From UHGV virus genome UHGV-0135730: 54,321 nt of DNA. One strand, given 5' to 3'. This DNA comes from a virus. Both the position numbers and the translations under genes were made by a program. A model generated the notes under the pieces. It made no database searches and had not been told where the DNA came from. It worked only from the letters and a program-made list of their open reading frames with translations. Numbering within the stretch: the stretch's first letter is position 1; every line of letters starts with the position of its first letter. Shown here one piece after another: positions 4,914-19,626 of this stretch.

Positions 4914-5103
4914 CTTTCACCTCGCGACGATAGATATTTACTGGCTTAACCGGGATGGCGTTAAAATCCCCTTCATCCAGTGCGGCAATAAACGTTAGCG
5001 CCAACCGTGCTTCAACACCGCTTAAATACTTGCACCATGCCTCACCGTTATGATCTTCAAAAAGAATAACCACTTTTTTCATGTTTATTTCTTGTTGTTC
5101 CAT
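4903..5103 (-). CDS. Hypothetical protein
   Basis: 66 aa ORF immediately downstream of Q. Confidence 0.4.
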   Translation of the reverse strand: MEQQEINMKKVVILFEDHNGEAWCKYLSGVEARLALTFIAALDEGDFNAIPVKPVNIYRREVKDEA

Positions 5104-5831
5104 TATTCACCCCGTGTCACTCGTTTAATTTCGTTATCAGCCCGCGCCTCTTCTTTGAACAATTCAGCAATGGCGTCTTCATAGAAAGCACGGTATTTCT
5201 TCCACCATGTTGATCGGCTTACCGGAAAAACAAGCTGATTAACCGCCTGTCGGACAAGATCTACAGGGAAACGCGAGTACCCGCGCCCGCCGCAGTGCTG
5301 GCACGTTTTGAACACTGGCATTTCCGCCGCTTCACTGGCTGCTTTATCCGGTACTTCGCCACGACCCTTGCACCGCTGGCAATGGTTTTTAACGTAGCCT
5401 TTGCCGCCGCACCGCGAGCAAACTGTCGATGCGTACTCACAATATGGATGTGGTGAAAGCCCGTTACCGCCGCACTTAGGGCAAACTTTTTCGGTCGCTG
5501 CACTCTGGCAATAATCCCGAAACGCGAAAACGGCAACAAGAATAATGAGATCATTGCGTTTGGCCTCGTCCAGTTCCATAACGTATTCATATTCTTTTGC
5601 CATAGCTCTTAAACGCTCTGTAAGCAAAACTACGGCCTTATGTTTTTCGGCTTGTGATAGTTCCATCTTTCCCAAAAAAGCGCTATAGCCAAGCTCTACG
5701 CGCGATTGCGCCATACCTGCGGCAGTTAGTGCATCCGTAGTATTAAGCGCATCCGGGGACGTGCCCCGGCTTTCATCTGATAAACGCGGTGATTTTGGGA
5801 AGTGGAATTTGAGAATAGATTCCAGATTCAT
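5103..5831 (-). CDS. Q: Late-gene antiterminator Q (lambda Q family)
   Basis: MNLESILKFHFPKSPRLSDESRGTSPD closely parallels lambda Q N-terminus; multiple CxxC zinc-binding motifs. Confidence 0.85.
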   Translation of the reverse strand: MNLESILKFHFPKSPRLSDESRGTSPDALNTTDALTAAGMAQSRVELGYSAFLGKMELSQAEKHKAVVLLTERLRAMAKEYEYVMELDEAKRNDLIILVAVFAFRDYCQSAATEKVCPKCGGNGLSPHPYCEYASTVCSRCGGKGYVKNHCQRCKGRGEVPDKAASEAAEMPVFKTCQHCGGRGYSRFPVDLVRQAVNQLVFPVSRSTWWKKYRAFYEDAIAELFKEEARADNEIKRVTRGE

Positions 5832-6013
5832 TACTTGCCCCCGTAACGCGCAACAAGTCTTTTGCGATCAGATATTGCCTGCACCAACTTTCTTTCAAGC
5901 TCTTTAAGTGCAAGCAATTCTCGCATGTGGAAAGCCTGTATTTGTCGCACAGTCTCTAAATCATGCTCATCGCGCTGAATATCTATTTGCAGATCTTTAA
6001 TTTCGTTTTTCAT
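5831..6013 (-). CDS. Hypothetical coiled-coil protein
   Basis: 60 aa ORF between RusA and Q. Confidence 0.4.
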   Translation of the reverse strand: MKNEIKDLQIDIQRDEHDLETVRQIQAFHMRELLALKELERKLVQAISDRKRLVARYGGK

Positions 6014-6016
6014 TTG

Positions 6017-6418
6017 TCACCCCCACATATTAGTTTCGTATTCACCAATATCCGGTAACAGGTCGCCGCGTTCGCGTACCTTAATAAACAATCGCCCGCC
6101 TTTTACCTTCCGGCAGCGAACAATTTTTATTGAGTCAATTTGCCCGTCATCCATCCAGAATCCGGCATAAGTAAGGCTGTCAAAAAGGCATTTAGGGATA
6201 TTATCCAGATCTCTGATCCGGTTATCCGGCGGCGCGGCGTAAATGGCAATTGCCAGTCGGCAAGGTAGGTTAATATTTAAATTTAATAGCTCGATGATGT
6301 CTCTTACTTGTTCCCTGTATTCCTTCCCTACTTTGCTGATATAATGAAAACCGCGCGAATGTCGGTAATAGCGATTATTCGATGGCGGGTAAGGCAGGCT
6401 AAAAGAATATTCATTCAT
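6017..6418 (-). CDS. rusA: Holliday junction resolvase RusA
   Basis: 133 aa, RusA-like size and conserved acidic residues; nin-region context. Confidence 0.7.
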   Translation of the reverse strand: MNEYSFSLPYPPSNNRYYRHSRGFHYISKVGKEYREQVRDIIELLNLNINLPCRLAIAIYAAPPDNRIRDLDNIPKCLFDSLTYAGFWMDDGQIDSIKIVRCRKVKGGRLFIKVRERGDLLPDIGEYETNMWG

Positions 6419-7020
6419 GCCGCCTTTCTCCTTAAGGCGTCCAATTTAGCCTGATAGACTTTTATGATTTCCTTACATTCTTCTATCGTCCATTTGTGAG
6501 TTTCGTTGTTGTTCTCCAGCGCTACCACCCTGGCGAGGCCAATTTTTCGAATCAGTGCCGGGCGATACCCTCCGATGTTGCCGTCTAGTGTCTGGTTGCA
6601 GTGCCTGCATTGTTTATGGCAATTATCCTCGTTAAAGCGAAGATGTCCGGCGGCGGCTACCGTCCTGTAATGGCCCGCATCCCACCCGCATTGCTCACCG
6701 TAGTAAGTACCGCAAGATATACACGGCAAGCGCGCGTCACGTTCGCGAATATAGGCGTTAAATACATTTTGAACTTGTTTGATCCAATAACTACGCGGAT
6801 TTAACTGCTTCCGCTTCCGGTTGCGCTCTTCCCGCTGGCGGTCGCGGCGTTTCTTCCGCTCCATAGCCTTCATAGCCTTCTCACGGTCGCGGCATAGCTG
6901 ATCAAATTTCAGCTCTTCCAGACACTCATCACTGCACCACGTTTGATTATGGTATTTAGGCTCAAAAAAAACGCCGCAGCATTTGCAACGGCGTTTTATG
7001 GGTTTTTTAGGGTTCTGCAT
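6415..7020 (-). CDS. ninG: NinG (Rap) recombination protein
   Basis: RSYWIKQVQNVFNAYIRERDARLPCISCGT...WDAGHYRTVAAAGHLRFNE..NCHKQC matches lambda NinG; ATG at 7020. Confidence 0.85.
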   Translation of the reverse strand: MQNPKKPIKRRCKCCGVFFEPKYHNQTWCSDECLEELKFDQLCRDREKAMKAMERKKRRDRQREERNRKRKQLNPRSYWIKQVQNVFNAYIRERDARLPCISCGTYYGEQCGWDAGHYRTVAAAGHLRFNEDNCHKQCRHCNQTLDGNIGGYRPALIRKIGLARVVALENNNETHKWTIEECKEIIKVYQAKLDALRRKAA

Positions 7021-7034
7021 AAAAACCACCCCGA

Positions 7035-7211
7035 TTATTTTTGATTCTCTGTTTCGTTCAGCCTTTCGGCGTGTCCGGCCCTTAGCCAATGATCTAAACA
7101 TTCGTTGCACTCGTTACAGCCTCCTTTCTTTGTGCTGCATACATTGCACATTGCACGCATGACGCTTTCTCGTTCATAGTCGTCATGCCATTGGTAATTA
7201 TCAAAAGACAT
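7035..7211 (-). CDS. Hypothetical Cys-rich small protein (58 aa)
   Basis: Strong AGGAGGG RBS; CNVC...CNECNEC motifs suggest zinc ribbon. Confidence 0.5.
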   Translation of the reverse strand: MSFDNYQWHDDYERESVMRAMCNVCSTKKGGCNECNECLDHWLRAGHAERLNETENQK

Positions 7212-7291
7212 AATGCTCCCTCCTTTTCAGGTGATTTATACGCATTTCAGCGCTGCCGGATTTTTAAAGAGCATTTTGTTTGCTTGAAGTA

Positions 7292-7366
7292 TACAAAATG
7301 GATACATGCAAACAAGACAAAAAGCGCCATTATGTGATCCGCATCACGCAATGACGCCATTTTGTA
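7292..7366. promoter_or_regulatory. Intergenic regulatory region: divergent TACAAAATGG motifs flanking palindrome TGTGATCCGCATCACG
   Basis: TACAAAATGG at 7292-7301 (+) and 7357-7366 (-); TGTGA-N6-TCACG palindrome at 7333-7348. Confidence 0.45.
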
Positions 7367-7370
7367 AACT

Positions 7371-8153
7371 TCAGTCCGGTAAAACGCGGTTGAGCGTAGT
7401 ACGATTGATGGCCCGGTCGTTAGCCATAAATACAGCACGGGCAAAGCCGCGCGGCGTTAGTGAGCGGATCATCTTTGTTCGTTTCGTCCGGCCTCCAGTT
7501 TTAGCCCACCCTGGGTTATCACCAGAATTAAGATCTACAGCCCTGAAAAGCGGCCGTTTGAATCCGTTGCCGCACCATATGCAAGTTTTCTTCGTGTAAG
7601 CGTCGCGCGGCGGGTAAACATCCGGGAAAGCAGGATGCTTGTCGTCTTCCGGCAGGTAGCCACCGTAAGCGCACGGATTGAAGATAAAATCCGGTTTACG
7701 CCATAGCGTTGACAGTGCTCCCACCGGATTTTCCACCATCCACGGCACGTTATACATATTCGCCAGTTTTTCTACCAATTTTGCGTTATACGCCGCCTTT
7801 ACCTGGAAGTCAGGATCTTCTTTTCGCTTGTCAGCGAACCAGCGAGCGCCAGACACGGCGAGATTGTCGCATGGCGGGAAGCCCAGGATAATATCAGGCT
7901 CCGGGTAAACTGATAATTCAGGCGAGAACATCACCAGGAAGTGACTGTCAATCCACACGTTAACGTATTCAATATTCGGGTGAATGATTTTAACGCCTTC
8001 ATAATCGCCGTGATTTGCGCCGTCATAGTTGAAGCAATAGCATTTATATCCTGCTTCCGCCCAGTCTTTAACGGCGTACCCGCTGCCGTCGTACAGCGAC
8101 CACACAACCCAGTTTCTTAGCCAGTTATTTAACCAGTGTTTAGCCTTGCTCAT
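7371..8153 (-). CDS. DNA cytosine-C5 methyltransferase-like protein (divergent)
   Basis: Order of motifs resembles C5-MTases: YDGSGY (motif I-like), GFPPCDNLAVSGA (motif IV-like, PCD in place of PCQ), ENPVG (motif VI-like). Confidence 0.35.
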   Translation of the reverse strand: MSKAKHWLNNWLRNWVVWSLYDGSGYAVKDWAEAGYKCYCFNYDGANHGDYEGVKIIHPNIEYVNVWIDSHFLVMFSPELSVYPEPDIILGFPPCDNLAVSGARWFADKRKEDPDFQVKAAYNAKLVEKLANMYNVPWMVENPVGALSTLWRKPDFIFNPCAYGGYLPEDDKHPAFPDVYPPRDAYTKKTCIWCGNGFKRPLFRAVDLNSGDNPGWAKTGGRTKRTKMIRSLTPRGFARAVFMANDRAINRTTLNRVLPD

Positions 8154-8695
8154 TTTTTGCCCTCAAACGTGAAATAGCGGCGCATGATGATAGTGATCAC
8201 CGTCACCGCTGCCATTTTTGAGATAAACTGCATCGCTGATATTTCCGGCATAAACGCCATAAACGATAGCGTCGGGAAAATTAACGCATCCCCGATGGCT
8301 GAAGCTATATTTGCAGGCCAGCGTTTCGAATCGAAATCACCAGGCAAAACCCGGTAAACACCGCCAGATATAAGCGCACCGGAAACAACCGCGACGAATG
8401 ACGCTATTGCTACCATTCCTGCATCGTAATTTATTAGCACCGTGATTGCGCCAGCGGCGGCGCATGTTGTAGCCGACCATTTCAGGCCGCCGTCATATAA
8501 CAGGAAGTCACGGATCATCATATTGACACATACAGCGGCTACCGTAGTGATCGGAATTACCCACGGGCCGCAATGGTTAACAATAAGGTTGATGATCACG
8601 AAAACGGCGACATAAACGCAGGCCAATAACCTGTCAATTGTCACCTTTTTCATTTGGGTCATACCTCTTATCGCGAATAGCTTCAGATCTGTCAA
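8150..8695 (-). CDS. Multi-pass inner membrane protein, unknown function
   Basis: 181 aa with at least 5 hydrophobic helices; overlaps neighbours. Confidence 0.5.
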   Translation of the reverse strand: MTDLKLFAIRGMTQMKKVTIDRLLACVYVAVFVIINLIVNHCGPWVIPITTVAAVCVNMMIRDFLLYDGGLKWSATTCAAAGAITVLINYDAGMVAIASFVAVVSGALISGGVYRVLPGDFDSKRWPANIASAIGDALIFPTLSFMAFMPEISAMQFISKMAAVTVITIIMRRYFTFEGKK

Positions 8696-9131
8696 AACTC
8701 AAATCAAGCCGAGTTGAAATACAACCGCATTGAGGGTTAAGCATTGAATGAGGCAATCCCTTACAGCTTGTTATTGCTGCGTCATTTATTATTCCATCAT
8801 TAATATTGGCGGCAGTGAACTGCCTTTTCTTCAGTTCCTCTTCCCTATCGTTTAATATTTGCTCCGCTTTTAGTGCGCTGTAGCTAATTAAATCAACCAA
8901 TGTATCAGTAGGATCGCTTTCATTAACTAAAATGGCCTCTAAACGCGCCTCCTTAAGACAAATCAACAGATCCCACACATCAAGTGGGGTTAAACTTGCC
9001 CCCTTCTTAGCGTTGTATATAGTGGCTATTTTTGGCGCTGATTTTTCCTCTTTTCTGTCGTAGCCGTTTTGTTTACCCCTTTGCTCTATTGTTTCCGCTG
9101 CAACTCGTAATAAATCTGCTGCACTAGTCAT
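8634..9131 (-). CDS. Hypothetical protein
   Basis: Start at MTSAADLL; between Dam-like methylase and membrane protein. Confidence 0.45.
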   Translation of the reverse strand: MTSAADLLRVAAETIEQRGKQNGYDRKEEKSAPKIATIYNAKKGASLTPLDVWDLLICLKEARLEAILVNESDPTDTLVDLISYSALKAEQILNDREEELKKRQFTAANINDGIINDAAITSCKGLPHSMLNPQCGCISTRLDLSFDRSEAIRDKRYDPNEKGDN

Positions 9132-9663
9132 TTTCTGCACCTCTTGCATATAGCTCTTTACGCGTTATGTGTGTGAAAATACATTCATGTCTGCACCGTG
9201 GATGCCAGATCAAAAACAAGCTCCCCTTGTTGTTTCCGCTAACTGGCTTACCAGTCGCAGCATTTATAAAAGCCAGCCGCCCGCGCGTTATTAATCTGCA
9301 TTCGTTTGCCGTCTCAACGCCGTTCATGAACCAGCTAACAGAAACGTCAGCGGGCAACAACATTACGCAACCAATGTGATTTCGTTGATGTTCAAGCGCC
9401 GCTTTATCAACGAATGGCCCTGGGTTTGAGTATGGCGGATTCATCCAGACATATTCACCAGGCATTGCCACCGCTCCCCACGGATAATGCAGCGTGTCCA
9501 TTTCTTCGGTTATATATCGCGGGATTAATGCGTTTGCCTTGTTTGCCGCCACGTCAGCGACAAATTCAAACTCGCGGTCCATTCCTCTAAAAACTGGTTT
9601 AGGTGTCTGCCACAGGTCTTTAATTTCCTTCGGCGTGCTGCTGCCTCCAAAATCATTTTTCAT
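9124..9663 (-). CDS. DNA N6-adenine methyltransferase (phage Dam-like)
   Basis: NPPY catalytic motif (VWMNPPYSN) and size typical of phage N6A methylases. Confidence 0.7.
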   Translation of the reverse strand: MKNDFGGSSTPKEIKDLWQTPKPVFRGMDREFEFVADVAANKANALIPRYITEEMDTLHYPWGAVAMPGEYVWMNPPYSNPGPFVDKAALEHQRNHIGCVMLLPADVSVSWFMNGVETANECRLITRGRLAFINAATGKPVSGNNKGSLFLIWHPRCRHECIFTHITRKELYARGAEND

Positions 9664-9672
9664 TACGCCCCC

Positions 9673-9921
9673 TTAAAAATAATCTTGTTCAGTCCCCCAA
9701 CGGTTGTTTAAATACCCAACCAACCAGATAAAACGCTCAATGCTGATTAGCGGGGCAACCTTGCGATAATGCTTTTCTAATATCAGCCGCGTAGCTTTAT
9801 CGCTGTAGCCGTTTCTTTCTACCTCTGCTTTGCAGGCAGAAAGCGCCGCACGCGCGGCAGTTTTTACGGCATTAAATTGCAGTTCTGACATATTGAACAA
9901 AGCCATAGGATCACCATTCAT
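9673..9921 (-). CDS. Hypothetical protein
   Basis: Start placed at MNGDPMALF to avoid long overlap. Confidence 0.35.
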   Translation of the reverse strand: MNGDPMALFNMSELQFNAVKTAARAALSACKAEVERNGYSDKATRLILEKHYRKVAPLISIERFIWLVGYLNNRWGTEQDYF

Positions 9922-10144
9922 CCCAATCCTGCGAAACGGTAAGGCAAAAACCGATGAATGCGCTACCAGCCAATAAAGCGCGCACAGTAAAAAGAATACT
10001 TTCAATGTCGTTAAATTCAGGTACTGACCATGTAACAAACATCATACCCAGCGTAAATATAACGATAGCGCCGCTGAACACCAAAAAAACAGAAAGCGTA
10101 GCCAAAAGCCACGCCTTTAACCAGTTTAAAAAGATTTTAACCAT
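9911..10144 (-). CDS. Hypothetical membrane protein (2 TM)
   Basis: 77 aa with two long hydrophobic helices. Confidence 0.45.
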   Translation of the reverse strand: MVKIFLNWLKAWLLATLSVFLVFSGAIVIFTLGMMFVTWSVPEFNDIESILFTVRALLAGSAFIGFCLTVSQDWDEW

Positions 10145-10145
10145 T

Positions 10146-10349
10146 TTAAACCTCGTCTATTACACCGCCTTGCACGCGCTCTTTAATGTCCCATGTATGA
10201 GGCTTGCATAATTCTTGATAATAGTGATCCGGCCTGCTGCCGAAATACCATTTACCTTCCATATAAAAATAAACGCCCGAAAATATTCCGGGCGCTGCCT
10301 TTGTTGCTGATTCTGGAATCTTCCAGTCTTTATACTGTTTAAACTTCAT
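10146..10349 (-). CDS. Hypothetical protein
   Basis: 67 aa ORF. Confidence 0.4.
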   Translation of the reverse strand: MKFKQYKDWKIPESATKAAPGIFSGVYFYMEGKWYFGSRPDHYYQELCKPHTWDIKERVQGGVIDEV

Positions 10350-10533
10350 GAGCTTTTAAGTAACCTCTTCTGAATGCTTTGATGTAAAGTCCTAGCCTTC
10401 TTATATGCTGAACGCCATCAATGATGCGCACCAAATAAATTTTCCCGTTTGTGTCAGATACAAAACGACAACCAAAACCAATGCCAACCAACGTCAGGTT
10501 GTCAGGTATTCTATAATCAGTTTTCTGTTCCAT
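10339..10533 (-). CDS. Hypothetical protein
   Basis: 64 aa ORF. Confidence 0.4.
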   Translation of the reverse strand: MEQKTDYRIPDNLTLVGIGFGCRFVSDTNGKIYLVRIIDGVQHIRRLGLYIKAFRRGYLKAHEV

Positions 10534-10536
10534 GCC

Positions 10537-10629
10537 TCACCTCATATGGTATTCAATAAACCACCTGATAAACAGGCATAAGGCAATAAAACCCCAGCAA
10601 CAGCACATATAAAACAATGTGTCGTCCAT
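10537..10629 (-). CDS. Small hydrophobic peptide (30 aa)
   Basis: MDDTLFYMCCCWGFIALCLFIRWFIEYHMR; packed between flanking genes (3-nt gaps). Confidence 0.4.
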   Translation of the reverse strand: MDDTLFYMCCCWGFIALCLFIRWFIEYHMR

Positions 10630-10631
10630 AA

Positions 10632-10850
10632 TTAAGCCTCAATAACACCGTAATCAAACGTGCCCAAATACCGTTCGATACTTACAACTTCAATACCATC
10701 AACGCACCGTTTCCACACAGACACCTGGCTTTCATTTTCTCTGAAGTGCATATTAGAAAGCACTTCATCGGCTGGATAGCCTTTCCCGGCGACGTAGGCA
10801 TCGTGACCTACTCCACCCTCAACACAATAAAGCATTAATTCGCGGGCCAT
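10632..10850 (-). CDS. Hypothetical protein
   Basis: 72 aa ORF downstream of predicted promoter. Confidence 0.45.
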   Translation of the reverse strand: MARELMLYCVEGGVGHDAYVAGKGYPADEVLSNMHFRENESQVSVWKRCVDGIEVVSIERYLGTFDYGVIEA

Positions 10851-10924
10851 CTTATTTCCCTCCGCACCGTAAACCTTTTGATTTCAGTTCACAAAACGGA
10901 TTCGCGATCACAATACAAAACGTA

Positions 10925-10953
10925 TATTTATGTGATCGCAATCACGATGTCAA
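10925..10953 (-). promoter_or_regulatory. Candidate sigma70 promoter with operator-like palindrome in spacer
   Basis: Minus strand TTGACA-17-TAAATA; the 17-nt spacer contains palindrome TGTGATCGCAATCACG (10931-10946). Confidence 0.5.
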
Positions 10954-11570
10954 TGAAGTACGCGTTTTTCAGGTTCTGGCATTGGCTGTGCGTCTTTCCG
11001 TGCGTCATTAAGCACGGCTATAGCTGCCTGTACACCTAAATCATTTGCGCGCATATTATTGCCAACCATTTCGCCGTAAAATAATGGCATGATCGCCTTT
11101 ACTTCTTCCTCTGTGTGCCCTTCATCAATACACTTCTGTAACGCTTTAGCCTCGAATACTTTTTTCATTACGCCGCGCATAGAATACAGCGCAACGCTAC
11201 CCATATGATTTTTATCTAACGGGAAAATAACCGCACTTCCGAACGCCAGCGGGTCAATTTCTTCCGGCACTGGCACGCGACCATACTCCTCTTCCATGCG
11301 CTTTACGAAAGTAAGGCAGAAGACATAGCGAGCTACGGCAGTTTTTTCTTCAGCGTTTAAAGACACATAATCGCGGATCGACGCGTCCATCACAATATCA
11401 ACAATCTGTAACGCCAGATTCAAATCGGCGTCATACTTGCCAGATTCCATATCTTTCAATACTTCGTGATAATCTTTAATTTCCACTTCATGAAAACTTG
11501 CGTCTTCAGTGTAGCGAGTGATTAACATGCCTTCGCTGCCGAGTGAATAAGCTGTTTTGATGTCTTTCAT
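10950..11570 (-). CDS. Hypothetical protein
   Basis: 206 aa ORF. Confidence 0.5.
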   Translation of the reverse strand: MKDIKTAYSLGSEGMLITRYTEDASFHEVEIKDYHEVLKDMESGKYDADLNLALQIVDIVMDASIRDYVSLNAEEKTAVARYVFCLTFVKRMEEEYGRVPVPEEIDPLAFGSAVIFPLDKNHMGSVALYSMRGVMKKVFEAKALQKCIDEGHTEEEVKAIMPLFYGEMVGNNMRANDLGVQAAIAVLNDARKDAQPMPEPEKRVLH

Positions 11571-11583
11571 GATATTTATCCTT

Positions 11584-11916
11584 TTATAGTGGGTGATGCC
11601 ATTTCATTTCTGTTTCTGAATTAAACGGGTTTCCTTCGCTTGAAAGGAATAAATCACGCTCCCGTTTCAGTTCTTCCGGGCTTATTTCTATTTCATCAAT
11701 CTGACCGAACGATCCCGGCATCATTCGTTTTAAATCAGATAGCGGACGCATAAGGCCGCAGCCGCGTAACAGCATATCGACCGCGAATTGTCTACGTCCG
11801 GCGGCGTCATTAAAGCGCCGCGCCCAGGGCACAACCACGATCCGGCGTTCGAATTCGATAAATAGTGATAGCTTGTTTGTTTCGCTATCATATGCTTTAT
11901 GGAATTTAATTTTCAT
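11584..11916 (-). CDS. Hypothetical protein
   Basis: 110 aa ORF. Confidence 0.45.
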   Translation of the reverse strand: MKIKFHKAYDSETNKLSLFIEFERRIVVVPWARRFNDAAGRRQFAVDMLLRGCGLMRPLSDLKRMMPGSFGQIDEIEISPEELKRERDLFLSSEGNPFNSETEMKWHHPL

Positions 11917-12097
11917 TTAACACCTCAACATATTGTTCAAGATGCCATTGACCCACCTCATCATCTTCCTCGTCAAATAATGTTACCTGACCACCAGGCC
12001 CAAAAGAAAAGGCAGCTATGATAAATTTATACCCATACCACGTACGGATCTTTTCGCCGCCTTTTAAATCTTTAACTTTCACCAATTTTATAGCCAT
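11906..12097 (-). CDS. Hypothetical protein
   Basis: 63 aa ORF. Confidence 0.4.
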   Translation of the reverse strand: MAIKLVKVKDLKGGEKIRTWYGYKFIIAAFSFGPGGQVTLFDEEDDEVGQWHLEQYVEVLNEN

Positions 12098-12360
12098 ACG
12101 CCGAACATCCCATTCAGTCCGGCGAACAATTTCCGCCAGTGGTTTTCAACATAAGCCCGGAACGGCTTAACGCGAACATTGCGGGCCTTCAGTTCAATCT
12201 TGTCGAAGAAACGCGGCTCTATAATTGTTCCATCTAGATATTTAACCAGGATCGGGCGCTCAAGATCGTTATATGTCTTGTTCAGCACAACCAGACCAGG
12301 GTCTTTACGGTATTCCGGGAGCACGACCAGATCGCCCGTTTTGATATTCATGAATGGCAT
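12088..12360 (-). CDS. Hypothetical protein
   Basis: 90 aa; ATG at 12360 overlaps stop of upstream peptide gene (TGATG). Confidence 0.45.
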   Translation of the reverse strand: MPFMNIKTGDLVVLPEYRKDPGLVVLNKTYNDLERPILVKYLDGTIIEPRFFDKIELKARNVRVKPFRAYVENHWRKLFAGLNGMFGVWL

Positions 12361-12476
12361 CACATCACCCCGCCGATATAGCTAATAATTGCCGCAGTCG
12401 CGCCAGCCATTACCACCATGAAGACGAAAGCGACCACGCAGAAAACAGCCTTGACAGTATTTTTGTCGACTCGCAT
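12360..12476 (-). CDS. Small hydrophobic peptide (38 aa)
   Basis: MRVDKNTVKAVFCVVAFVFMVVMAGATAAIISYIGGVM; single predicted TM helix. Confidence 0.45.
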   Translation of the reverse strand: MRVDKNTVKAVFCVVAFVFMVVMAGATAAIISYIGGVM

Positions 12477-12483
12477 ATAAACC

Positions 12484-12591
12484 TCACATGTCAGTAATCA
12501 GCTTAACAATCGCCACAGTGATATAAAGTGACGCAATAAGGTAAACAGCCGCCACAGCAACGGCGGCGGATAACATTGCAATCTTTTTCAT
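12484..12591 (-). CDS. Small hydrophobic peptide (35 aa)
   Basis: MKKIAMLSAAVAVAAVYLIASLYITVAIVKLITDM; ATGA overlap with upstream gene. Confidence 0.45.
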   Translation of the reverse strand: MKKIAMLSAAVAVAAVYLIASLYITVAIVKLITDM

Positions 12592-12827
12592 TTGCCACCC
12601 TCCGCAATGAACTTATCAAGCCATTTGTTATTAGCCAGCCGTTCTTTGTCATTACCAAAACTGTTTCTGCTTAAAAGCTCCTGTTTTGTTAATTGCGGCC
12701 ACTTATCCGTCCACCCAGCCGACGTATCGAACTCATACAGACCGCCGTCAAAAGTAACAAAGTCATCAGCCGTGTCAGGCACTTCTTTATCAACTTCTTT
12801 TTCTTCGATCATGATTTGATACCTCAT
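12588..12827 (-). CDS. Hypothetical protein
   Basis: 79 aa ORF. Confidence 0.45.
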   Translation of the reverse strand: MRYQIMIEEKEVDKEVPDTADDFVTFDGGLYEFDTSAGWTDKWPQLTKQELLSRNSFGNDKERLANNKWLDKFIAEGGK

Positions 12828-13120
12828 TAATCGTTAATGACCTGGCCCATACGCCCGCGATATTTGCGCATACGTGGATCGACATATTCAGGCCAATGCA
12901 TATCCGGTTTTCTTTGCAGTGGGTAAAAACTTGCCTGCCAGTTGTCGAACCATATTTGCTTTGCGTACAGGTCACTAAATCTTTTCGCCATTCGTTCCGC
13001 TGCCGTGCCGCATAAAAAAAGCCCGCGATCGATTTGATCACGGGCTTCTCTTAAAACTTGCTCTTTTGTTCGCGGAATCGGTGGCGCATTAAGATAATGC
13101 GTGGATTCTGCTTTTTCCAT
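12827..13120 (-). CDS. Hypothetical protein
   Basis: Start at MEKAEST; downstream of SSB. Confidence 0.4.
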   Translation of the reverse strand: MEKAESTHYLNAPPIPRTKEQVLREARDQIDRGLFLCGTAAERMAKRFSDLYAKQIWFDNWQASFYPLQRKPDMHWPEYVDPRMRKYRGRMGQVIND

Positions 13121-13556
13121 ATTGTAACCCAATAGGAGCAAATGGAATATCGTCGTCGAGGTCCATCGGCGGCGCATTATTCCCGTTATTATTCTGCTGC
13201 TGCGGCGGCGCTTTCTGCTGCTGGCCTTGCTGCTGGCCTTGTTGGTTAACGTTCATGAATTCGAATTCGTTAACCGCCACTTCAACCGCCGTCCCCTTCG
13301 TGCCGTCGTTCCGGTCATATTGCCGAACATCCAGGCGACCGCTTACCACTATTTTTCCACCCTTACGAATATGTGGCGCTAATTTTTCCGCACGCTCGCC
13401 AAATACCAGGCAAGTGATCCACATTACCCGCTTATTATCGCCGTAGCCATTCGTTACAGCTAACGGAAAGCTACCAATAGCTTTACCGTTTTGCGTGTAG
13501 CGAACTTCCATATCATTTCCGATATTACCGCCCAGCATGATTGAATTTAAGCTCAT
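13089..13556 (-). CDS. ssb: Single-stranded DNA-binding protein
   Basis: OB-fold-like N-terminus, Gln/Gly-rich linker, C-terminal acidic tip DDDIPF. Confidence 0.85.
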   Translation of the reverse strand: MSLNSIMLGGNIGNDMEVRYTQNGKAIGSFPLAVTNGYGDNKRVMWITCLVFGERAEKLAPHIRKGGKIVVSGRLDVRQYDRNDGTKGTAVEVAVNEFEFMNVNQQGQQQGQQQKAPPQQQNNNGNNAPPMDLDDDIPFAPIGLQYGKSRIHALS

Positions 13557-14209
13557 TAACCGATCTCCCCGTTAAGCTCTTTTAAGCGAATATCATAAAC
13601 GTCTTTAGCTTTCTGTTGCTGCTCTGAATCTTTAGGAAGTAGCTTCCAGCACTTTCCGAAGATCTCGCGTAACTTGTTAGCGTCCGGCGCTTTCGCTGCC
13701 GCATCACAGAAACGCGCTAACACTTCATCAGGATTTGGCGGCGCTTTCTGCTGCTGTGGTTTCTGATTAGTTTGTTGTTTTGGTGGGTTTTTCTGTTGGC
13801 GAGGCTGCTGGCCTGTCTGCTTAGCGTATGCGTCAGTATCAGGATCTCGCGCATCGTCAATGCAGAACAATCCGTTCAACGCGTATTTACGCGCATAACT
13901 TGATGTCGCGCCAGTTAACTGGCTTGCGTCCATTCCCTTCTTGCTTTCTTCTTCCCTGGCGTAAGCAGTTACCGCAATTTCATCTTCGCCGTCGCTTAGT
14001 GTAGCCGTGGCTTTCACATAATAGCGATTGCCGATCAGGACGATTTCATCGCTAACAGTCAGCGTTATATTTTGAAGAAGTGGCTTAACCGCCTCCAAAA
14101 TATCCTCCGCCGACCTGTAATTGTACCCACCAAAATTATTACGCTGATTTTTCGGCGCGTTCAACGTTTGTTGAATCGTCCACAGCTTTTTGTGTAACTC
14201 TGTTTTCAC
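13556..14209 (-). CDS. erf: ERF-family single-strand annealing recombinase
   Basis: N-terminal FGGYNYRSAEDILEAVKPLL and TGATSSYARKYALNGLF typical of ERF; GTG start with AGGAG RBS. Confidence 0.75.
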   Translation of the reverse strand: MKTELHKKLWTIQQTLNAPKNQRNNFGGYNYRSAEDILEAVKPLLQNITLTVSDEIVLIGNRYYVKATATLSDGEDEIAVTAYAREEESKKGMDASQLTGATSSYARKYALNGLFCIDDARDPDTDAYAKQTGQQPRQQKNPPKQQTNQKPQQQKAPPNPDEVLARFCDAAAKAPDANKLREIFGKCWKLLPKDSEQQQKAKDVYDIRLKELNGEIG

Positions 14210-14328
14210 TCTTTGATCTCCTTCGCTGTTAACACTATGTATAAGGCTTTATTCGCGGCGCTCCACATTTCGGCATCGTGAAGCATTTCCGCTACTGCCA
14301 GTTTGAATTGAAGCGCCTCGATAACCAT
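14206..14328 (-). CDS. Hypothetical small protein (40 aa)
   Basis: GGAGG RBS; stop overlaps erf start (GTGA). Confidence 0.35.
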   Translation of the reverse strand: MVIEALQFKLAVAEMLHDAEMWSAANKALYIVLTAKEIKE

Positions 14329-14358
14329 AATGTAACCTCCGAATGTTTACATTTTGTA

Positions 14359-14649
14359 TTAATGGTAACGGACTTTATCCAGGGGTTTCTCCCCTAAATG
14401 GCGTGGTTGCGTTGCGTGGTAGTAGCTGCCACTTTCATTTTCCGTATACCATTTTACTGATCCTTTGCGACGTTCTTTTTTGCCATCTGGCTTGCATCTT
14501 TCGTCACTTGCCATTCGAATGGCTTTTTCCACATTGTCAGTTTTATTAATTGCAGGTGATGATTTTCTTTCGTTTTCTCTTTTTATCCTTCTGCGTTCCC
14601 TGGCATTTATTTTGCTATCACATTTACCATATATAATTGTAACGCTCAT
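14359..14649 (-). CDS. Arg-rich basic protein, candidate N-like antiterminator
   Basis: First gene after the pL-like promoter and a 340-nt leader; N-terminal arginine-rich motif NARERRRIKRENERK resembles N-family ARM. Confidence 0.4.
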   Translation of the reverse strand: MSVTIIYGKCDSKINARERRRIKRENERKSSPAINKTDNVEKAIRMASDERCKPDGKKERRKGSVKWYTENESGSYYHATQPRHLGEKPLDKVRYH

Positions 14650-14705
14650 AATCTGATCTCCGTATATCCTTGATGATACTTAATAAAAAATCATCTTCGT
14701 TAATT

Positions 14706-14743
14706 GCCGCACTTCCAGCGGCTGACCAGATTGTTAATGAGCG
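14706..14743 (-). promoter_or_regulatory. Candidate nutL (boxA-like plus boxB-like hairpin)
   Basis: Minus strand CGCTCATTA (boxA-like) then 12 nt then hairpin GCCGC-UGGAAGU-GCGGC, upstream of the N-like gene. Confidence 0.35.
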
Positions 14744-14997
14744 GCTTAACATCTTTCAACTAATCCCGCAATCATCGCCGTTCCCGGCGTGACCTTGCTC
14801 ACTCCAAGCAAGCTGACTCGTCGCCTTGCGTGCGGTTTCGTGGGGGATGTAACGCTTTAAACACCCCATGCGCCTTGTTATCAGTGCCGCTTTCGGTCCC
14901 CCATCGGGGAGTTACTCCACGGTTGACAAGGTGTTAAGCCTGATTTTTAAAGTGCCAGGAAGTTGCTTTTGTTGCCTGCTCCCTTCCTTTGATTCGC

Positions 14998-15040
14998 AAT
15001 ATACGCCCCGTAAAACACCGAGTCAATCCATTTTGTATAC
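14998..15040 (-). promoter_or_regulatory. Early leftward promoter (pL-like)
   Basis: Minus strand GTATACAAAATGG-A-TTGACT-17-TATATT. Confidence 0.6.
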
Positions 15041-15107
15041 TTTTTTAAAATATTTTATATACTATTGATATTTAAACAATAAATAGCGTTTTCTGTTTAC
15101 GTTTTGG

Positions 15108-15145
15108 TGTTTTTTCGAACAAAGAAAAGCCGCCACCAGGCGGCT
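15108..15145 (-). terminator. Rho-independent terminator after repressor gene
   Basis: Hairpin AGCCGCC-ACCA-GGCGGCT followed by T-rich run on minus strand. Confidence 0.6.
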
Positions 15146-15150
15146 AATGT

Positions 15151-15798
15151 TTATGGCAGGTTTACGATCTTCGCATCAACAACCACGCCAATGATTTTTG
15201 ACTCTGGATTCATAGGGATCGGCGGATACAACGGATTCAGTGAACGCAAAAGTTTTCGGCCTCCATCAATAATCAACTGTTTAAACGTAGGTATCTGCCC
15301 TTCCTCCAGTTGTGCTATAACAAGTTTTCCGTCAATAGCTGGCGCGTGCGGGTCAACGAGTATCATAGTCCCCGCCGGGATGCTTAACCCCTGCGGTGCG
15401 TTCATTGATTCACCTTTAGCAACCAGCCAATAACTATCATCCGAACAAATAACGCTAGTAGCAACGTGTGGCAATGTTGATCGGTGTGTGCCTTCCATAT
15501 TGTTTGCTACATCCTTCCAGTCAACAACCGGGTAACTGCCTAAATCACGCGGTGGCGCTCCCGACAACGTGTTAGAAACAGAATCATCAATGACCATTCC
15601 GTCATGAGTAACAGTAAATTGCCGACGCCCAAGCGCCCGCATGATACGCGCAATATCTTCAAGATTCGGCTCACGGCGACCGTTCAGCCAGTGAGAAAGG
15701 CCGCCTTTGGTTATCCCCATAAGATCAGCCAATGAATCCTGGCTCATGCCCTGCGCCCGCATGAGTTGTTTTGCTAAGTCATACCATTTTGTTTTCAT
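15151..15798 (-). CDS. CI-like prophage repressor (HTH plus S24 LexA-like peptidase)
   Basis: N-terminal HTH (QDSLADLMGITKGGLSHWLNG), C-terminal S24 domain with GESM serine motif. Confidence 0.85.
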   Translation of the reverse strand: MKTKWYDLAKQLMRAQGMSQDSLADLMGITKGGLSHWLNGRREPNLEDIARIMRALGRRQFTVTHDGMVIDDSVSNTLSGAPPRDLGSYPVVDWKDVANNMEGTHRSTLPHVATSVICSDDSYWLVAKGESMNAPQGLSIPAGTMILVDPHAPAIDGKLVIAQLEEGQIPTFKQLIIDGGRKLLRSLNPLYPPIPMNPESKIIGVVVDAKIVNLP

Positions 15799-18474: not shown

Positions 18475-18507
18475 GTATACATTTTGTTAACTGGAGGGAT
18501 TAACATT

Positions 18508-19626
18508 ATGTCGCAAAGAAAAATCAGCGATGAGCAATTGATCGCTGAATACAACAACGGTTTAACGTACAAACAGATTGCTGAGAAGTACGGCATGTCT
18601 AAACGCAATGTCGAGCGCCTGGGCGCAAAACTGGCGAAACGTGGTTTATTATCAACACGCCGCGCGCCTGGTTTTGGCGTCAATGGCGAGTCGTTGCTAG
18701 TCGATAAAAACGGCAATGTGATCATGCGCTGGATTAAAACAGCCCGTGACCGCGACGAAATGGAACAGCTAATGGAAGCGGCCCGCGACGCTTTCACGGA
18801 TGAAATACCACGCGCGGAGGCTGTGCCAGTGCCTGAAATTGATTTTCAAAAAAGCCTGGCACTTTACCCGGTATTTGACCTGCATATCGGGGCGCTTGCT
18901 CATAAAGCTGAATGCGGAGAGAGCTACGATACTGGGATCGCTGAGCGCGTGTTGAATGACTTCTTTGACTACGCTGTTGGCGCTGCTCCGATGTCTGAAA
19001 AAGCAGTACTGCTCCTCGGTGGCGATCTACTTCATTCTGACGGTATGGTCCCGGTGACGCCAACAAGCGGGCACATTCTTGATCAAGATAGTCGCTACGC
19101 AAAACTTGTTTATGTGGCGATCCGGTCTGTCCGGCGGGCGGTAGGAAAGATGTTGTTAAATCATAAAGATGTTGAAATCCAGGTGTTATCAGGCAATCAC
19201 GATCAGTCGGGCATGATTTGGCTACGTGCGGCGCTGGCGGCTTTTTACGAAGATGAACCGCGCGTGACGGTTGATGTATCACCTGCTATTGTCCACCACA
19301 CACAGTACGGTAAAACATTCCTTGCATATCATCACGGTCATACTATCAAAAAACCTGAAAATTTGTTGTCTGCCTGCGTATCTGACTGGCGTGAGGATTT
19401 CGGCAAGTCGGCGGCTGTTTACGCTCACACTGGACATCTACATCACCAATCTGTTGTTGAAACATCATTGGGGATCGTTGAACACCACGGCACGTTAGCT
19501 GGCAAAGACGCATATTCGACTAATGGCGGCTGGCGGTCGCGGCGGCTGGCAGCGGTGATTATTTACAGCCCGGATCATGGGGAAATTGGGCGCTTTGTTT
19601 ATTACCCTGAATATTCCATTTTGTAA
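18508..19626 (+). CDS. HTH domain fused to calcineurin-like metallophosphoesterase
   Basis: N-terminal HTH (LTYKQIAEKYGMSKRNVERL); phosphoesterase motifs DLH, GGDLLH, GNHD, HHGH, GHLHH in canonical order. Confidence 0.6.
   Translation: MSQRKISDEQLIAEYNNGLTYKQIAEKYGMSKRNVERLGAKLAKRGLLSTRRAPGFGVNGESLLVDKNGNVIMRWIKTARDRDEMEQLMEAARDAFTDEIPRAEAVPVPEIDFQKSLALYPVFDLHIGALAHKAECGESYDTGIAERVLNDFFDYAVGAAPMSEKAVLLLGGDLLHSDGMVPVTPTSGHILDQDSRYAKLVYVAIRSVRRAVGKMLLNHKDVEIQVLSGNHDQSGMIWLRAALAAFYEDEPRVTVDVSPAIVHHTQYGKTFLAYHHGHTIKKPENLLSACVSDWREDFGKSAAVYAHTGHLHHQSVVETSLGIVEHHGTLAGKDAYSTNGGWRSRRLAAVIIYSPDHGEIGRFVYYPEYSIL

What the first reader, a model, noticed from the sequence alone, without database searches (positions are those of the whole stretch)
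7371..9663. Two orphan DNA methyltransferase-like genes in the early-left operon, one with a C5-MTase-like motif set but PCD in place of PCQ
9124-9663 has the NPPY motif of phage Dam-like N6-adenine methylases. 7371-8153 shows the motif order of cytosine-C5 methyltransferases (YDGSGY, GFPPCDN, ENPVG), but the catalytic-loop residue after Pro-Cys is Asp rather than the conserved Gln. No restriction partner is evident. They may provide anti-restriction protection, or the divergent enzyme may have a different chemistry.
Basis: partly seen in the sequence, partly recalled or inferred. Interest (0 to 1): 0.55.

Follow-up and report, generated by a model that had tools for sequence, protein, structure and literature searches.

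The report
Two ordinary phage DNA methyltransferase genes
The two genes are real, but both belong to common, already annotated families of stand-alone phage DNA methyltransferases, and the odd "PCD" motif is a normal trait of a small cytosine-methylase family that has been shown to make 5-methylcytosine.

Summary
Both ORFs and all quoted motifs exist at the stated coordinates. The window is a complete genome of an mEp021-like (mEpimmI) temperate coliphage. In the mEp021 record the same two genes are already annotated as putative adenine-N6 and cytosine methyltransferases.

ORF 9124-9663 is a clear phage Dam (Pfam PF05869, E 3e-51; TIGR01712 above its cutoff; NPPY at residues 75-78).

It is 63% identical to the Dcm-like protein of phage KarlJaspers. 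The near-identical K42 enzyme raises 5mC on retron Ec86 DNA, and mutating C82, E128, K175 and K176 together abolishes this. All four residues are conserved here, as C95, E141, K188 and K189.

The missing Gln is a family trait. The residue after Pro-Cys is Thr in 104 of 124 representatives, Asp in 9 and Gln in 1. DNMT3B has PCN.

No restriction partner was found. A different chemistry is not supported. The sequence specificity of this small family remains poorly defined. Interest is low.

The parts
9124..9663 (-). Phage Dam-type DNA N6-adenine methyltransferase gene (179 aa). NPPY catalytic motif at residues 75-78 (nt 9430-9441), DLWQTP at residues 16-21, DVAA at residues 37-40.
   Evidence: Pfam PF05869 E 3.1e-51, 173.9 bits. 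TIGR01712 phage_N6A_met, 139 bits against a cutoff of 97.05. PHROG 111 E 2e-62. PADLOC 'orphan methyltransferase' E 1.8e-24. Annotated 'putative DNA N-6 adenine methyltransferase' in mEp021. Homologues in 1,875 phage records.
8634..9149 (-). DUF6378 protein gene (171 aa), function unknown. Overlaps the dam stop by 26 nt. Not a recognisable restriction enzyme.
   Evidence: Pfam PF19905 DUF6378 E 1.5e-7. PHROG 474/9871. No PADLOC hit. No meaningful PDB hit. Homologues of the N-terminal ~100 aa in 198 phage records, mostly Dhillonvirus.
8150..8662 (-). Small membrane protein gene (170 aa from ATG 8662; the longest ORF starts at TTG 8695). The mEp021 orthologue is annotated with 6 TM segments. Function unknown.
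   Evidence: ORF. PHROG 4899, E 1.4e-46, function unknown. mEp021_32 'putative membrane protein, 6 transmembrane domains'. Only 11 close relatives in 5.8 billion proteins. No Pfam, NCBIfam or PADLOC hit.
7371..8153 (-). Small Dcm-like DNA cytosine-C5 methyltransferase gene (260 aa). The ATG overlaps the upstream stop (ATGA) and a GAGGG ribosome-binding site lies 5 nt upstream of it.
8076..8099 (-). Motif I-like AdoMet-binding loop, SLYDGSGY (residues 19-26).
   Evidence: Aligned to SLFDG of DNMT3B and to motif I of M.HaeIII and DNMT2 in profile searches.
7863..7883 (-). Motif IV catalytic loop, GFPPCDN (residues 91-97). Cys95 (nt 7869-7871) is the predicted nucleophile.
   Evidence: Cys is present in 116 of 124 representatives. 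Position 96 is Thr 104, Asp 9, Gln 1. Cys95 corresponds to C82 of K42 Dcm.
7719..7736 (-). Motif VI, VENPVG (residues 140-145). Glu141 corresponds to the ENV glutamate.
   Evidence: Glu in 120 of 124, Asn 111 of 124, Pro 122 of 124. Glu141 corresponds to E128 of K42 Dcm.
7575..7607 (-). Motif VIII-like segment, RDAYTKKTCIW (residues 183-193). Lys188 and Lys189 correspond to K175 and K176 of K42 Dcm.
   Evidence: K175 and K176 were named as substrate-binding residues in the K42 study. Assignment to motif VIII is my inference from spacing and pattern.
7431..7469 (-). Motif IX-like segment, IRSLTPRGFARAV (residues 229-241), leading into the C-terminal helix.
   Evidence: Near-invariant R230, S231, T233, P234, G236 and A240. 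The resemblance to the RxLTxRExARLQGF consensus of bacterial C5-methyltransferases is from my own knowledge and was not tested structurally.

Best explanation
The region is a four-gene, translationally coupled stretch of the early operon of an mEp021-like temperate coliphage. That operon depends on N-like (Gp17-type) antitermination. The stretch carries two stand-alone DNA methyltransferases. The 179-aa protein is a phage Dam-type N6-adenine methyltransferase (PF05869/TIGR01712). The 260-aa protein is a member of the widespread family of small (about 227-260 aa) phage 'Dcm-like' cytosine-C5 methyltransferases. It most likely uses the standard C5 mechanism: Cys95 of the Pro-Cys loop attacks C6 of a flipped-out cytosine, Glu141 of the ENP motif protonates N3, and a methyl group passes from S-adenosylmethionine to C5, giving 5-methylcytosine. 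Both enzymes would be made early in lytic growth, and not in the repressed prophage. They would methylate replicating phage DNA, probably at Dam (GATC) and Dcm-like (CCWGG-type) sites, making it resistant to restriction enzymes that those marks block. Shown here: gene existence, family membership, fold, conservation of catalytic residues, and absence of a recognisable restriction partner. Taken from papers: 5mC formation by a close family member. Inferred: activity of this particular protein, target sequences, timing and the anti-restriction role.
For: Dam: PF05869 E 3.1e-51, TIGR01712 above cutoff, NPPY present.

C5-like protein, experimental link: 63% identity over 233 aa to KarlJaspers bas06_0055 (711 bp). 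The 711-bp Dcm of the 95%-identical phage K42 raised 5mC on Ec86 msDNA by LC-MS, and the C82A/E128A/K175A/K176A mutant did not. Those positions are C95, E141, K188 and K189 here, all conserved. Pantoea phage AAS23 carries the same pair: gp52 is 56% identical and gp34 is 39% identical. Its DNA was reported to be Dam- and Dcm-methylated by restriction analysis.

Site frequencies: GATC (244 observed, 243 expected) and CCWGG (137 observed, 138 expected) are not avoided in this genome.

Operon context: repressor, N-like antiterminator, erf, ssb ... dam ... dcm, ninF, ninG, rusA, Q. Gp17 antitermination is described for the mEp group.
Against: No experiment exists on this protein or on any PCD-bearing member.

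The protein gets no Pfam or NCBIfam hit. It has no recognisable motif X and only about 35 residues where a target-recognition domain would normally sit.

The CCWGG assignment in the K42 study was made by analogy with host Dcm plus msDNA mutagenesis, not by methylome mapping.

The AAS23 restriction data do not separate host methylation from phage methylation.

The BASEL study found no simple link between these methyltransferase genes and restriction resistance in Drexlerviridae, so the anti-restriction benefit is unproven.

The motif II acidic residue is Asn42 in this enterobacterial subgroup, against Asp in 113 of 124 representatives. The active K42-type protein shares the Asn.
Confidence: 0.8

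Rival explanations
1. The Asp after Pro-Cys marks a change of chemistry or cofactor. For example, the enzyme might transfer a group other than methyl, as the phage carboxymethyltransferase CmoX does with carboxy-SAM, which E. coli makes through CmoA.
Against: CmoX selectivity depends on an Arg at the M.HhaI Asn304 position (motif X), not on the residue after Pro-Cys, and CmoX genes usually sit next to cmoA and ligase genes. Neither gene type was seen in this window among the ORFs tested or in the mEp021 stretch annotated. Asp and Thr interchange between proteins 82-88% identical. Asp occurs in only 9 of 124 representatives scattered through a Thr background. The PCT orthologue makes 5mC. A carboxylate next to the nucleophile would, if anything, disfavour an anionic cofactor (my inference). 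I could not inspect the 3D model to see which residue sits at the Asn304 position.
Confidence: 0.04
2. The 260-aa protein is catalytically dead or only weakly active. It could be a decaying methyltransferase, or a DNA-binding or decoy protein retained for another reason.
For: No Pfam hit. Non-canonical motif I. Asn instead of Asp at the motif II position. Very short target-recognition region. No canonical motif X.
Against: These features are shared with the K42/KarlJaspers enzyme, which is active in vivo. Cys95, Glu141, Asn142, Pro143, Lys188 and Arg230 are near-invariant across about 240 aligned family members. The gene is intact and 88-96% identical in protein across the mEp group and its close relatives, while the region's DNA identity is 87-94%. 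It has a good ribosome-binding site and translational coupling.
Confidence: 0.06
3. The enzyme acts on RNA (for example tRNA C38, like DNMT2) rather than on DNA.
Against: DNA enzymes score higher in the fold search (DNMT3B 14.5, HhaI 11.9). The K42 orthologue methylated the DNA part of msDNA. The gene travels with a DNA adenine methyltransferase in several phage groups.
Confidence: 0.03
4. The methyltransferases are not orphans. One of the two intervening genes, or another unannotated ORF, is an unrecognised restriction or toxin partner.
For: The four genes overlap and are conserved together in mEp-like phages. Both intervening proteins have unknown function. Several other ORFs in the window have no family assignment.
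Against: Neither intervening protein hits any PADLOC, Pfam or NCBIfam nuclease model. One of them is a 6-TM membrane protein. In KarlJaspers, AAS23 and Dhillonvirus the same methyltransferase families occur without these neighbours. PADLOC classifies the Dam-like protein with orphan methyltransferases.
Confidence: 0.03

Closest known systems
Phage 'Dcm-like' small C5 cytosine methyltransferase of Drexlerviridae (K42 Dcm; KarlJaspers bas06_0055), the trigger of retron Ec86/Eco1
   Same: 63% identity over 233 aa. Same length class and same motif set. The catalytic and binding residues C82, E128, K175 and K176 correspond to C95, E141, K188 and K189. Also modelled against DNMT3A by the authors. 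Also co-resident with a PF05869 Dam.
   Different: PCD here against PCT there. This protein has an extra 13-residue N-terminal helix and a 15-residue C-terminal tail. It sits in a temperate phage's early operon between a membrane-protein gene and the nin genes, whereas K42 and KarlJaspers belong to Drexlerviridae, a family I know as virulent T1-like phages. No experiment has been done on this protein.
DNMT3A/DNMT3B catalytic domain (eukaryotic de novo C5-methyltransferases)
   Different: Only 15-17% identity. No regulatory domains. The DNMT3 oligomer interfaces were not examined here. No evolutionary link is implied.
Canonical bacterial C5-methyltransferases (Pfam PF00145: E. coli Dcm/M.EcoRII, M.HhaI, M.HaeIII)
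   Different: No PF00145 hit for this protein. PC(T/D) instead of PCQ and ENP instead of ENV. About 100 residues shorter, with only a rudimentary target-recognition region and no recognisable GNAV motif X.
CmoX, phage DNA cytosine C5-carboxymethyltransferase (PDB 8yf3)
   Different: CmoX needs carboxy-SAM, recognised by Arg350, and is usually linked to cmoA and ligase genes. No such genes were seen among the parts of this window that were checked. The family member that was tested gives 5mC.
Phage Dam family PF05869/TIGR01712 (as in phage 434, Stx-converting phages and Drexlerviridae)
   Same: Full-length match above curated cutoffs, with NPPY. 42% identity to the phage 434 and Stx-phage proteins and 39% to AAS23 gp34.
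   Different: Nothing notable. Target specificity was not tested here.

Membership tests
Small phage Dcm-like C5-methyltransferase family (PHROG 757; K42/KarlJaspers Dcm) | Significant full-length sequence similarity to characterised or annotated members | tested here: met
   PHROG 757 E 1.9e-86 over residues 3-253. 63% identity, E 8e-107, to KarlJaspers bas06_0055. 56% identity to AAS23 gp52.
Small phage Dcm-like C5-methyltransferase family (PHROG 757; K42/KarlJaspers Dcm) | Residues shown to be required in K42 Dcm (C82, E128, K175, K176) are conserved | tested here: met
   C95, E141, K188 and K189 align to them exactly. Family conservation is 116, 120, 112 and 51(+29 Arg) of 124. The mutant data come from the preprint.
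Small phage Dcm-like C5-methyltransferase family (PHROG 757; K42/KarlJaspers Dcm) | Family-typical motif IV, FPPC-T-D-L-A | tested here: not met
   This protein has FPPC-D-N-L-A. Asp at this position is a minority state (9 of 124 representatives; 4 of 117 close relatives) but it recurs, and it is fixed in the mEp group. This is a variant within the family, not grounds for exclusion.
Small phage Dcm-like C5-methyltransferase family (PHROG 757; K42/KarlJaspers Dcm) | Produces 5-methylcytosine in DNA | not testable with these tools
   Shown only for K42 Dcm, by LC-MS. Suggested for AAS23 by restriction digests.
Canonical C5 DNA methyltransferases (Pfam PF00145) | Score above the Pfam gathering threshold | tested here: not met
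   No Pfam family at E up to 0.1. 15 of 80 relatives give PF00145 hits, best E 1.3e-6.
Canonical C5 DNA methyltransferases (Pfam PF00145) | Class I AdoMet-methyltransferase fold closest to C5 enzymes | tested here: met
Canonical C5 DNA methyltransferases (Pfam PF00145) | Motif IV Pro-Cys nucleophile and motif VI Glu-Asn-x | tested here: met
   PPC at residues 93-95 and ENP at 141-143, near-invariant in the family.
Canonical C5 DNA methyltransferases (Pfam PF00145) | Gln after Pro-Cys (PCQ) | tested here: not met
   Asp96 here, and Gln in 1 of 124 family representatives. This is not universal among true C5 enzymes either: DNMT3B has PCN.
Canonical C5 DNA methyltransferases (Pfam PF00145) | Variable target-recognition domain between motifs VIII and IX, and a C-terminal motif X (GNAV) | tested here: inconclusive
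   Only about 35 residues (194-228) separate the motif VIII-like and motif IX-like segments, and no GNAV-like motif follows. I could not inspect model coordinates to see what occupies the motif X position.
Phage Dam (Pfam PF05869 / NCBIfam TIGR01712) | Score above curated cutoffs over the full length | tested here: met
   173.9 bits against 28.1, profile positions 2-167 of 169. 139 bits against 97.05.
Phage Dam (Pfam PF05869 / NCBIfam TIGR01712) | (D/N)PPY catalytic motif | tested here: met
   WMNPPYS at residues 73-79.
Phage Dam (Pfam PF05869 / NCBIfam TIGR01712) | N6-adenine methylation at GATC | not testable with these tools
   Only indirect: GATC is not depleted (244 observed, 243 expected), and the related AAS23 DNA was reported to be Dam-methylated.
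Orphan (solitary) methyltransferase | No cognate restriction endonuclease encoded nearby | tested here: met
   The 8 ORFs from 5103 to 10038 gave no nuclease of restriction type in Pfam or PHROG, and the four genes of the span plus three upstream ORFs gave none in PADLOC. Ten further ORFs elsewhere in the window were scanned with Pfam and gave none. The Dam-like protein hits PADLOC's orphan-methyltransferase model. The check is not exhaustive: several ORFs have no family assignment.

The most novel reading that the evidence does not exclude
The mEp-phage subgroup, with Asp fixed next to the catalytic cysteine, may have a property that differs from the Thr-bearing majority, such as an altered target sequence, altered cofactor use or altered reactivity. 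Alternatively, the tightly coupled set dam - DUF6378 - 6-TM membrane protein - dcm may work as one functional module, with the two unknown proteins supporting or regulating DNA modification. More generally, this roughly 230-aa family lacks a normal target-recognition domain and motif X, and how it recognises DNA sequence is not understood.
Probability: 0.06. Interest if true: 0.5.

Novelty: already known. Interest (0 to 1): 0.12.

Why it matters
It matters little as a discovery. Both genes are already annotated with these functions in the published genome of the closest named relative, mEp021. The small Dcm-like family has also been tied experimentally to 5mC formation and to activation of retron Ec86/Eco1.

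Three practical points remain:

1. This very common phage family (more than 1,500 phage genomes) is invisible to Pfam and NCBIfam. As a result it is labelled 'hypothetical protein' in 5 of the 6 full-length mEp genome records.
2. 'PCQ' should not be used as a litmus test for C5-methyltransferases.
3. If this enzyme behaves like its K42 relative, mEp-like temperate phages should be sensed by retron Eco1. That prediction is testable.

Tried and rejected
1. Single-sequence AlphaFold of the 260-aa protein was useless (pLDDT 32.8). The 80-sequence alignment was needed.

2. phmmer of the protein against PDB sequences found nothing. Only family profiles gave weak C5-methyltransferase hits.

3. Pfam and NCBIfam gave no hit for the C5-like protein. 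I did not take this as evidence against methyltransferase identity.

4. I suspected that the 6-TM protein might be a YhhQ/Vut-type precursor transporter linked to DNA modification. There was no Pfam support, and the homologue search returned only 11 near-identical proteins with no informative domains. I dropped the idea.

5. The DUF6378 protein was checked as a possible nuclease or partner. PADLOC gave no hit and the PDB gave no significant hit. The PHROG label 'phosphofructokinase' has no support here.

7. I tried to decide the carboxymethyltransferase question by finding the residue equivalent to M.HhaI Asn304 / CmoX Arg350. This was not possible, because model coordinates and structural alignments are not exposed and motif X is not recognisable by sequence.

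8. Site-frequency analysis is compatible with GATC and CCWGG methylation but cannot discriminate.

9. The K42 Dcm sequence itself is not available in the tools. I used its KarlJaspers (Bas06) orthologue, whose gene length (711 bp) and residue numbering match the paper exactly.
Full report
**What is in the sequence**

The quoted peptide motifs are all present:
- YDGSGY at residues 21-26
- GFPPCDN at residues 91-97
- ENPVG at residues 141-145
- NPPY at residues 75-78 of the second protein

- A DUF6378 protein at 8634-9149.
- A small membrane protein at 8150-8662. The longest ORF starts at TTG 8695, but the orthologue in mEp021 starts at the ATG.

All four genes overlap their neighbours by 26, 29 and 4 nt. 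The C5-like gene has a GAGGG ribosome-binding site, and its ATG overlaps the upstream stop as ATGA.

**Where the window comes from**

The region is 87-94% identical in DNA to the mEp021 group of temperate coliphages (mEp010, mEp554, mEp021, mEp515, mEp044, mEp013, MagusPhagus). The first 25 kb of the window aligns along most of its length to those genomes. The window is therefore essentially a whole genome of an mEpimmI-type phage, a group described in Front Microbiol 2025 (PMC11893012).

In the mEp021 GenBank record the four genes are annotated as follows:
- mEp021_30: 'putative DNA N-6 adenine methyltransferase'
- mEp021_31: hypothetical protein
- mEp021_32: 'putative membrane protein, 6 TM'
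- mEp021_33: 'putative DNA cytosine methyltransferase'

The paper lists a DNA cytosine methyltransferase among the group's probable phage-function genes. The core of the finding is therefore already on record.

**Operon context**

Reading leftward in the window from the repressor gene (15151-15798), the gene order is:
1. an N-like antiterminator
2. erf, ssb and abc2
3. several small genes
4. dam, DUF6378, the membrane protein, the C5-like gene
5. ninF, ninG (PF05766), rusA (PF05866), Q (PF03589)
6. the lysis genes

'Early-left' is accurate for the window's orientation. The operon, however, merges what in lambda are pL-type and nin/Q-type genes. In the deposited mEp021 record the same operon runs rightward. 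Early antitermination by Gp17 in this group is documented.

**The Dam-like gene**

This gene is unambiguous.
- Pfam PF05869: E 3.1e-51, 173.9 bits against a cutoff of 28.1, covering positions 2-167 of the 169-position profile.
- NCBIfam TIGR01712 'phage N-6-adenine-methyltransferase': 139 bits against a cutoff of 97.05.
- PADLOC 'orphan methyltransferase': E 1.8e-24.
- Relatives occur in 1,875 phage records, including phage 434, Stx-converting phages and Drexlerviridae.

**The C5-like gene: family**

The protein gets no Pfam or NCBIfam hit and no PDB hit by phmmer. It matches PHROG 757 'DNA methyltransferase' at E 1.9e-86.

The family is huge:
- More than 7,653 proteins passed E 0.001 among the 8,000 candidates scored.
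- There are 1,218 cluster representatives at 50% identity.
- tblastn finds it in 1,506 phage genomes. By my reading of the phage names, these include Drexlerviridae, Dhillonvirus, Kagunavirus, rV5-like Vequintavirinae, the T4-like phage JSE and 9NA-like phages. Many of these genes are annotated as Dcm or C-5 cytosine methylase.

Typical members are 225-260 aa long.

**The C5-like gene: link to C5-methyltransferases**

Profiles built from 25 or 80 members hit almost only cytosine-C5 methyltransferases in the PDB (the one exception is a kinase, ToxD, at E 0.1). The hits are weak but consistent: DNMT3B, M.HaeIII, DNMT2 and the 8yf3 enzyme, at E 0.06-1.8. They align from motif I through the Pro-Cys loop. 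Fifteen of 80 members hit PF00145 on their own, with a best E of 1.3e-6.

With the 80-sequence alignment, AlphaFold gives a confident model (pLDDT 91.4, pTM 0.88). Fold searches on that model gave:
- Foldseek against the PDB: DNMT3A/B at E about 4e-7.
- Foldseek against viral models: cytosine methylases.

**Experimental anchor**

A preprint on retron Ec86 (bioRxiv 10.1101/2023.08.16.553469) reports the following:
- Escape mutants of the Drexlerviridae phage K42 all disrupt, or probably disrupt expression of, a 711-bp 'Dcm' gene. K42 is 95.4% identical to KarlJaspers/Bas06.
- Expressing this Dcm raises 5mC in the retron's msDNA, measured by LC-MS.
- A C82A/E128A/K175A/K176A mutant does not raise 5mC.
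- The authors also modelled the protein on DNMT3A.

I fetched KarlJaspers. Its bas06_0055 gene is 711 bp and is annotated 'Dcm-like C5 cytosine methyltransferase'. Our protein is 63% identical to it over 233 residues (E 8e-107). In that alignment Cys82, Glu128, Lys175 and Lys176 fall exactly on our Cys95, Glu141, Lys188 and Lys189.

A later paper restates that phage cytosine methyltransferase activates retron Eco1.

Independently, Pantoea phage AAS23 carries the same gene pair. Its gp52 is 56% identical to our C5-like protein and its gp34 is 39% identical to our Dam. Its DNA was reported to be Dam- and Dcm-methylated from digests with a panel of restriction enzymes that included EcoRII and MboI. 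Host contributions were not excluded in that work.

**The 'PCD instead of PCQ' point**

I aligned 241 family proteins of 190-340 aa from the two searches, together with the query and KarlJaspers, and read the column after Pro-Cys.

| Set | Thr | Asp | Glu | Arg | Gln |
|---|---|---|---|---|---|
| 124 distant representatives | 104 | 9 | 3 | 2 | 1 |
| 117 closer relatives | 113 | 4 | 0 | 0 | 0 |

The lack of Gln is therefore a trait of the whole family, including the member shown to make 5mC.

Asp is a recurrent minority state. It is fixed in the mEp group (mEp021 PPCDD, MagusPhagus PPCDN), while an E. coli prophage protein 82% identical to ours has PPCTD.

A true C5-methyltransferase, DNMT3B, has PCNDLS aligned to this family's PC(T/D)DLA.

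The other catalytic positions are near-invariant: Cys 116 of 124, Glu 120 of 124, Asn 111 of 124 and Pro 122 of 124 in ENP, and Lys188 112 of 124.

**How the family departs from canonical enzymes**

- Motif I is LFDx(S/T)G rather than FxGxG.
- The motif II acidic residue is Asp in most representatives but Asn in this enterobacterial subgroup, K42-type proteins included.
- Only about 35 residues lie between the motif VIII-like RDAYTKKT segment and the motif IX-like IRSLTPRGFARAV segment.
- No GNAV-type motif X can be recognised.

**Could the chemistry differ?**

A natural precedent exists. CmoX from phage S-B43 is a C5-methyltransferase homologue that transfers a carboxymethyl group from carboxy-SAM (PMC12783734). 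Three things argue against that reading here:
- CmoX selectivity rests on Arg350 at the M.HhaI Asn304 position, not on the residue after Pro-Cys.
- CmoX genes are typically linked to cmoA and amide-ligase genes, and none was seen in the parts of this genome that were checked.
- The PCT orthologue yields 5mC.

I could not check which residue of the model sits at the Asn304 position. A small residual probability therefore remains.

**Orphan status and role**

No restriction-type nuclease was found in three checks:
- Pfam and PHROG scans of the eight ORFs from 5103 to 10038.
- A PADLOC scan of the four genes of the span plus three ORFs upstream of dam.
- A Pfam scan of ten further ORFs elsewhere in the window.

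In KarlJaspers, AAS23 and a Dhillonvirus, the same methyltransferase families occur without the DUF6378 and membrane-protein neighbours in the arrangement seen here.

GATC (244 observed, 243 expected) and CCWGG (137 observed, 138 expected) are not avoided in this genome. This is compatible with protective methylation at those sites but does not prove it.

The anti-restriction role is the standard inference. The BASEL study, however, found no simple relation between these genes and restriction resistance in Drexlerviridae. The CCWGG specificity of the small Dcm-like family has never been mapped directly.

**Verdict**

The suggested novelty is not supported. These are two ordinary, already annotated, stand-alone phage methyltransferases. 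The PCD motif is a minor variant within a family whose normal state is PCT. Residual interest lies in the undefined specificity and minimal architecture of the small Dcm-like family, and in the two unknown genes wedged between the methyltransferase genes.

Noticed in passing
window 8634-9149 (-): A DUF6378 protein lies between the two methyltransferase genes and overlaps both neighbours. Its PHROG label 'phosphofructokinase' has no support here. Homologues of its N-terminal ~100 aa occur in 198 phage records, mostly Dhillonvirus. In vB_EcoS-CHD5UKE2 the homologue (gp59) lies about 700 bp downstream of that phage's PF05869 Dam (gp56). This may be a loose Dam-DUF6378 association across unrelated phage groups.
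   Followed up: partly
window 8150-8662 (-): A membrane protein of 170 aa (6 TM segments in the mEp021 annotation) is translationally coupled to the C5-methyltransferase gene through an ATGA overlap. Only 11 close relatives were found among 5.8 billion proteins by the word-indexed search. No Pfam, NCBIfam or PADLOC hit. Function unknown.
   Followed up: partly
window 5103-15798 (-): A single leftward early operon combines lambda pL-type genes (N-like antiterminator, erf, ssb, abc2) with lambda nin/Q-type genes (ninF, ninG, rusA, Q) and then the lysis genes. The replication genes (HTH_36 initiator, DnaB-type helicase, NinB) are transcribed the other way, from about 16 kb. This fits the 'non-lambdoid but Nus-dependent' description of the mEpimmI group.
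   Followed up: partly
window 7371-8153 (-), residue 42 (nt 8028-8030): The motif II position is Asp in 113 of 124 distant family representatives but Asn in all 117 close (enterobacterial phage) relatives, including the experimentally active K42/KarlJaspers type. In canonical C5-methyltransferases this acidic residue binds the AdoMet ribose.
   Followed up: no
related records PP180001-PP180005 (mEp010, mEp013, mEp515, mEp044, mEp554): In 5 of the 6 full-length mEp genome records, all the genes of this region, both methyltransferase genes included, are labelled 'hypothetical protein'. The small Dcm-like family has no Pfam or NCBIfam model that catches it, so it is systematically under-annotated despite occurring in more than 1,500 phage genomes.
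   Followed up: partly
whole window: CTAG (16 observed, 59 expected) and GAATTC (4 observed, 11.5 expected) are strongly depleted. GGCC (ratio 0.67) and GGWCC (ratio 0.65) are moderately depleted. GATC and CCWGG are at expectation.
   Followed up: no
window 14998-15145: A strong terminator-like hairpin that reads on both strands (15128-15145) lies directly downstream of the repressor gene. It is followed by the best sigma-70-like promoter match in the region (15026-14998, minus strand, 10 of 12 matches). This is a plausible start of the early operon that carries the methyltransferase genes.
   Followed up: no
P0212 (453 aa), P0228 (414 aa), P0240 (401 aa); BFVD A0A6J5SE15 (1397 aa): Some family members carry the small Dcm-like domain fused to other domains: after an N-terminal extension of about 170-190 residues in the three P-numbered proteins, and within very large helicase-containing proteins. 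These could help define partners or targets of the family.
   Followed up: no
window 18484-19626 (+): A 380-aa ORF in the replication-side operon has no Pfam hit. Part of it has about 72% DNA similarity to Klebsiella phage genes, one of which is annotated 'DNA repair exonuclease'. Function unresolved.
   Followed up: no
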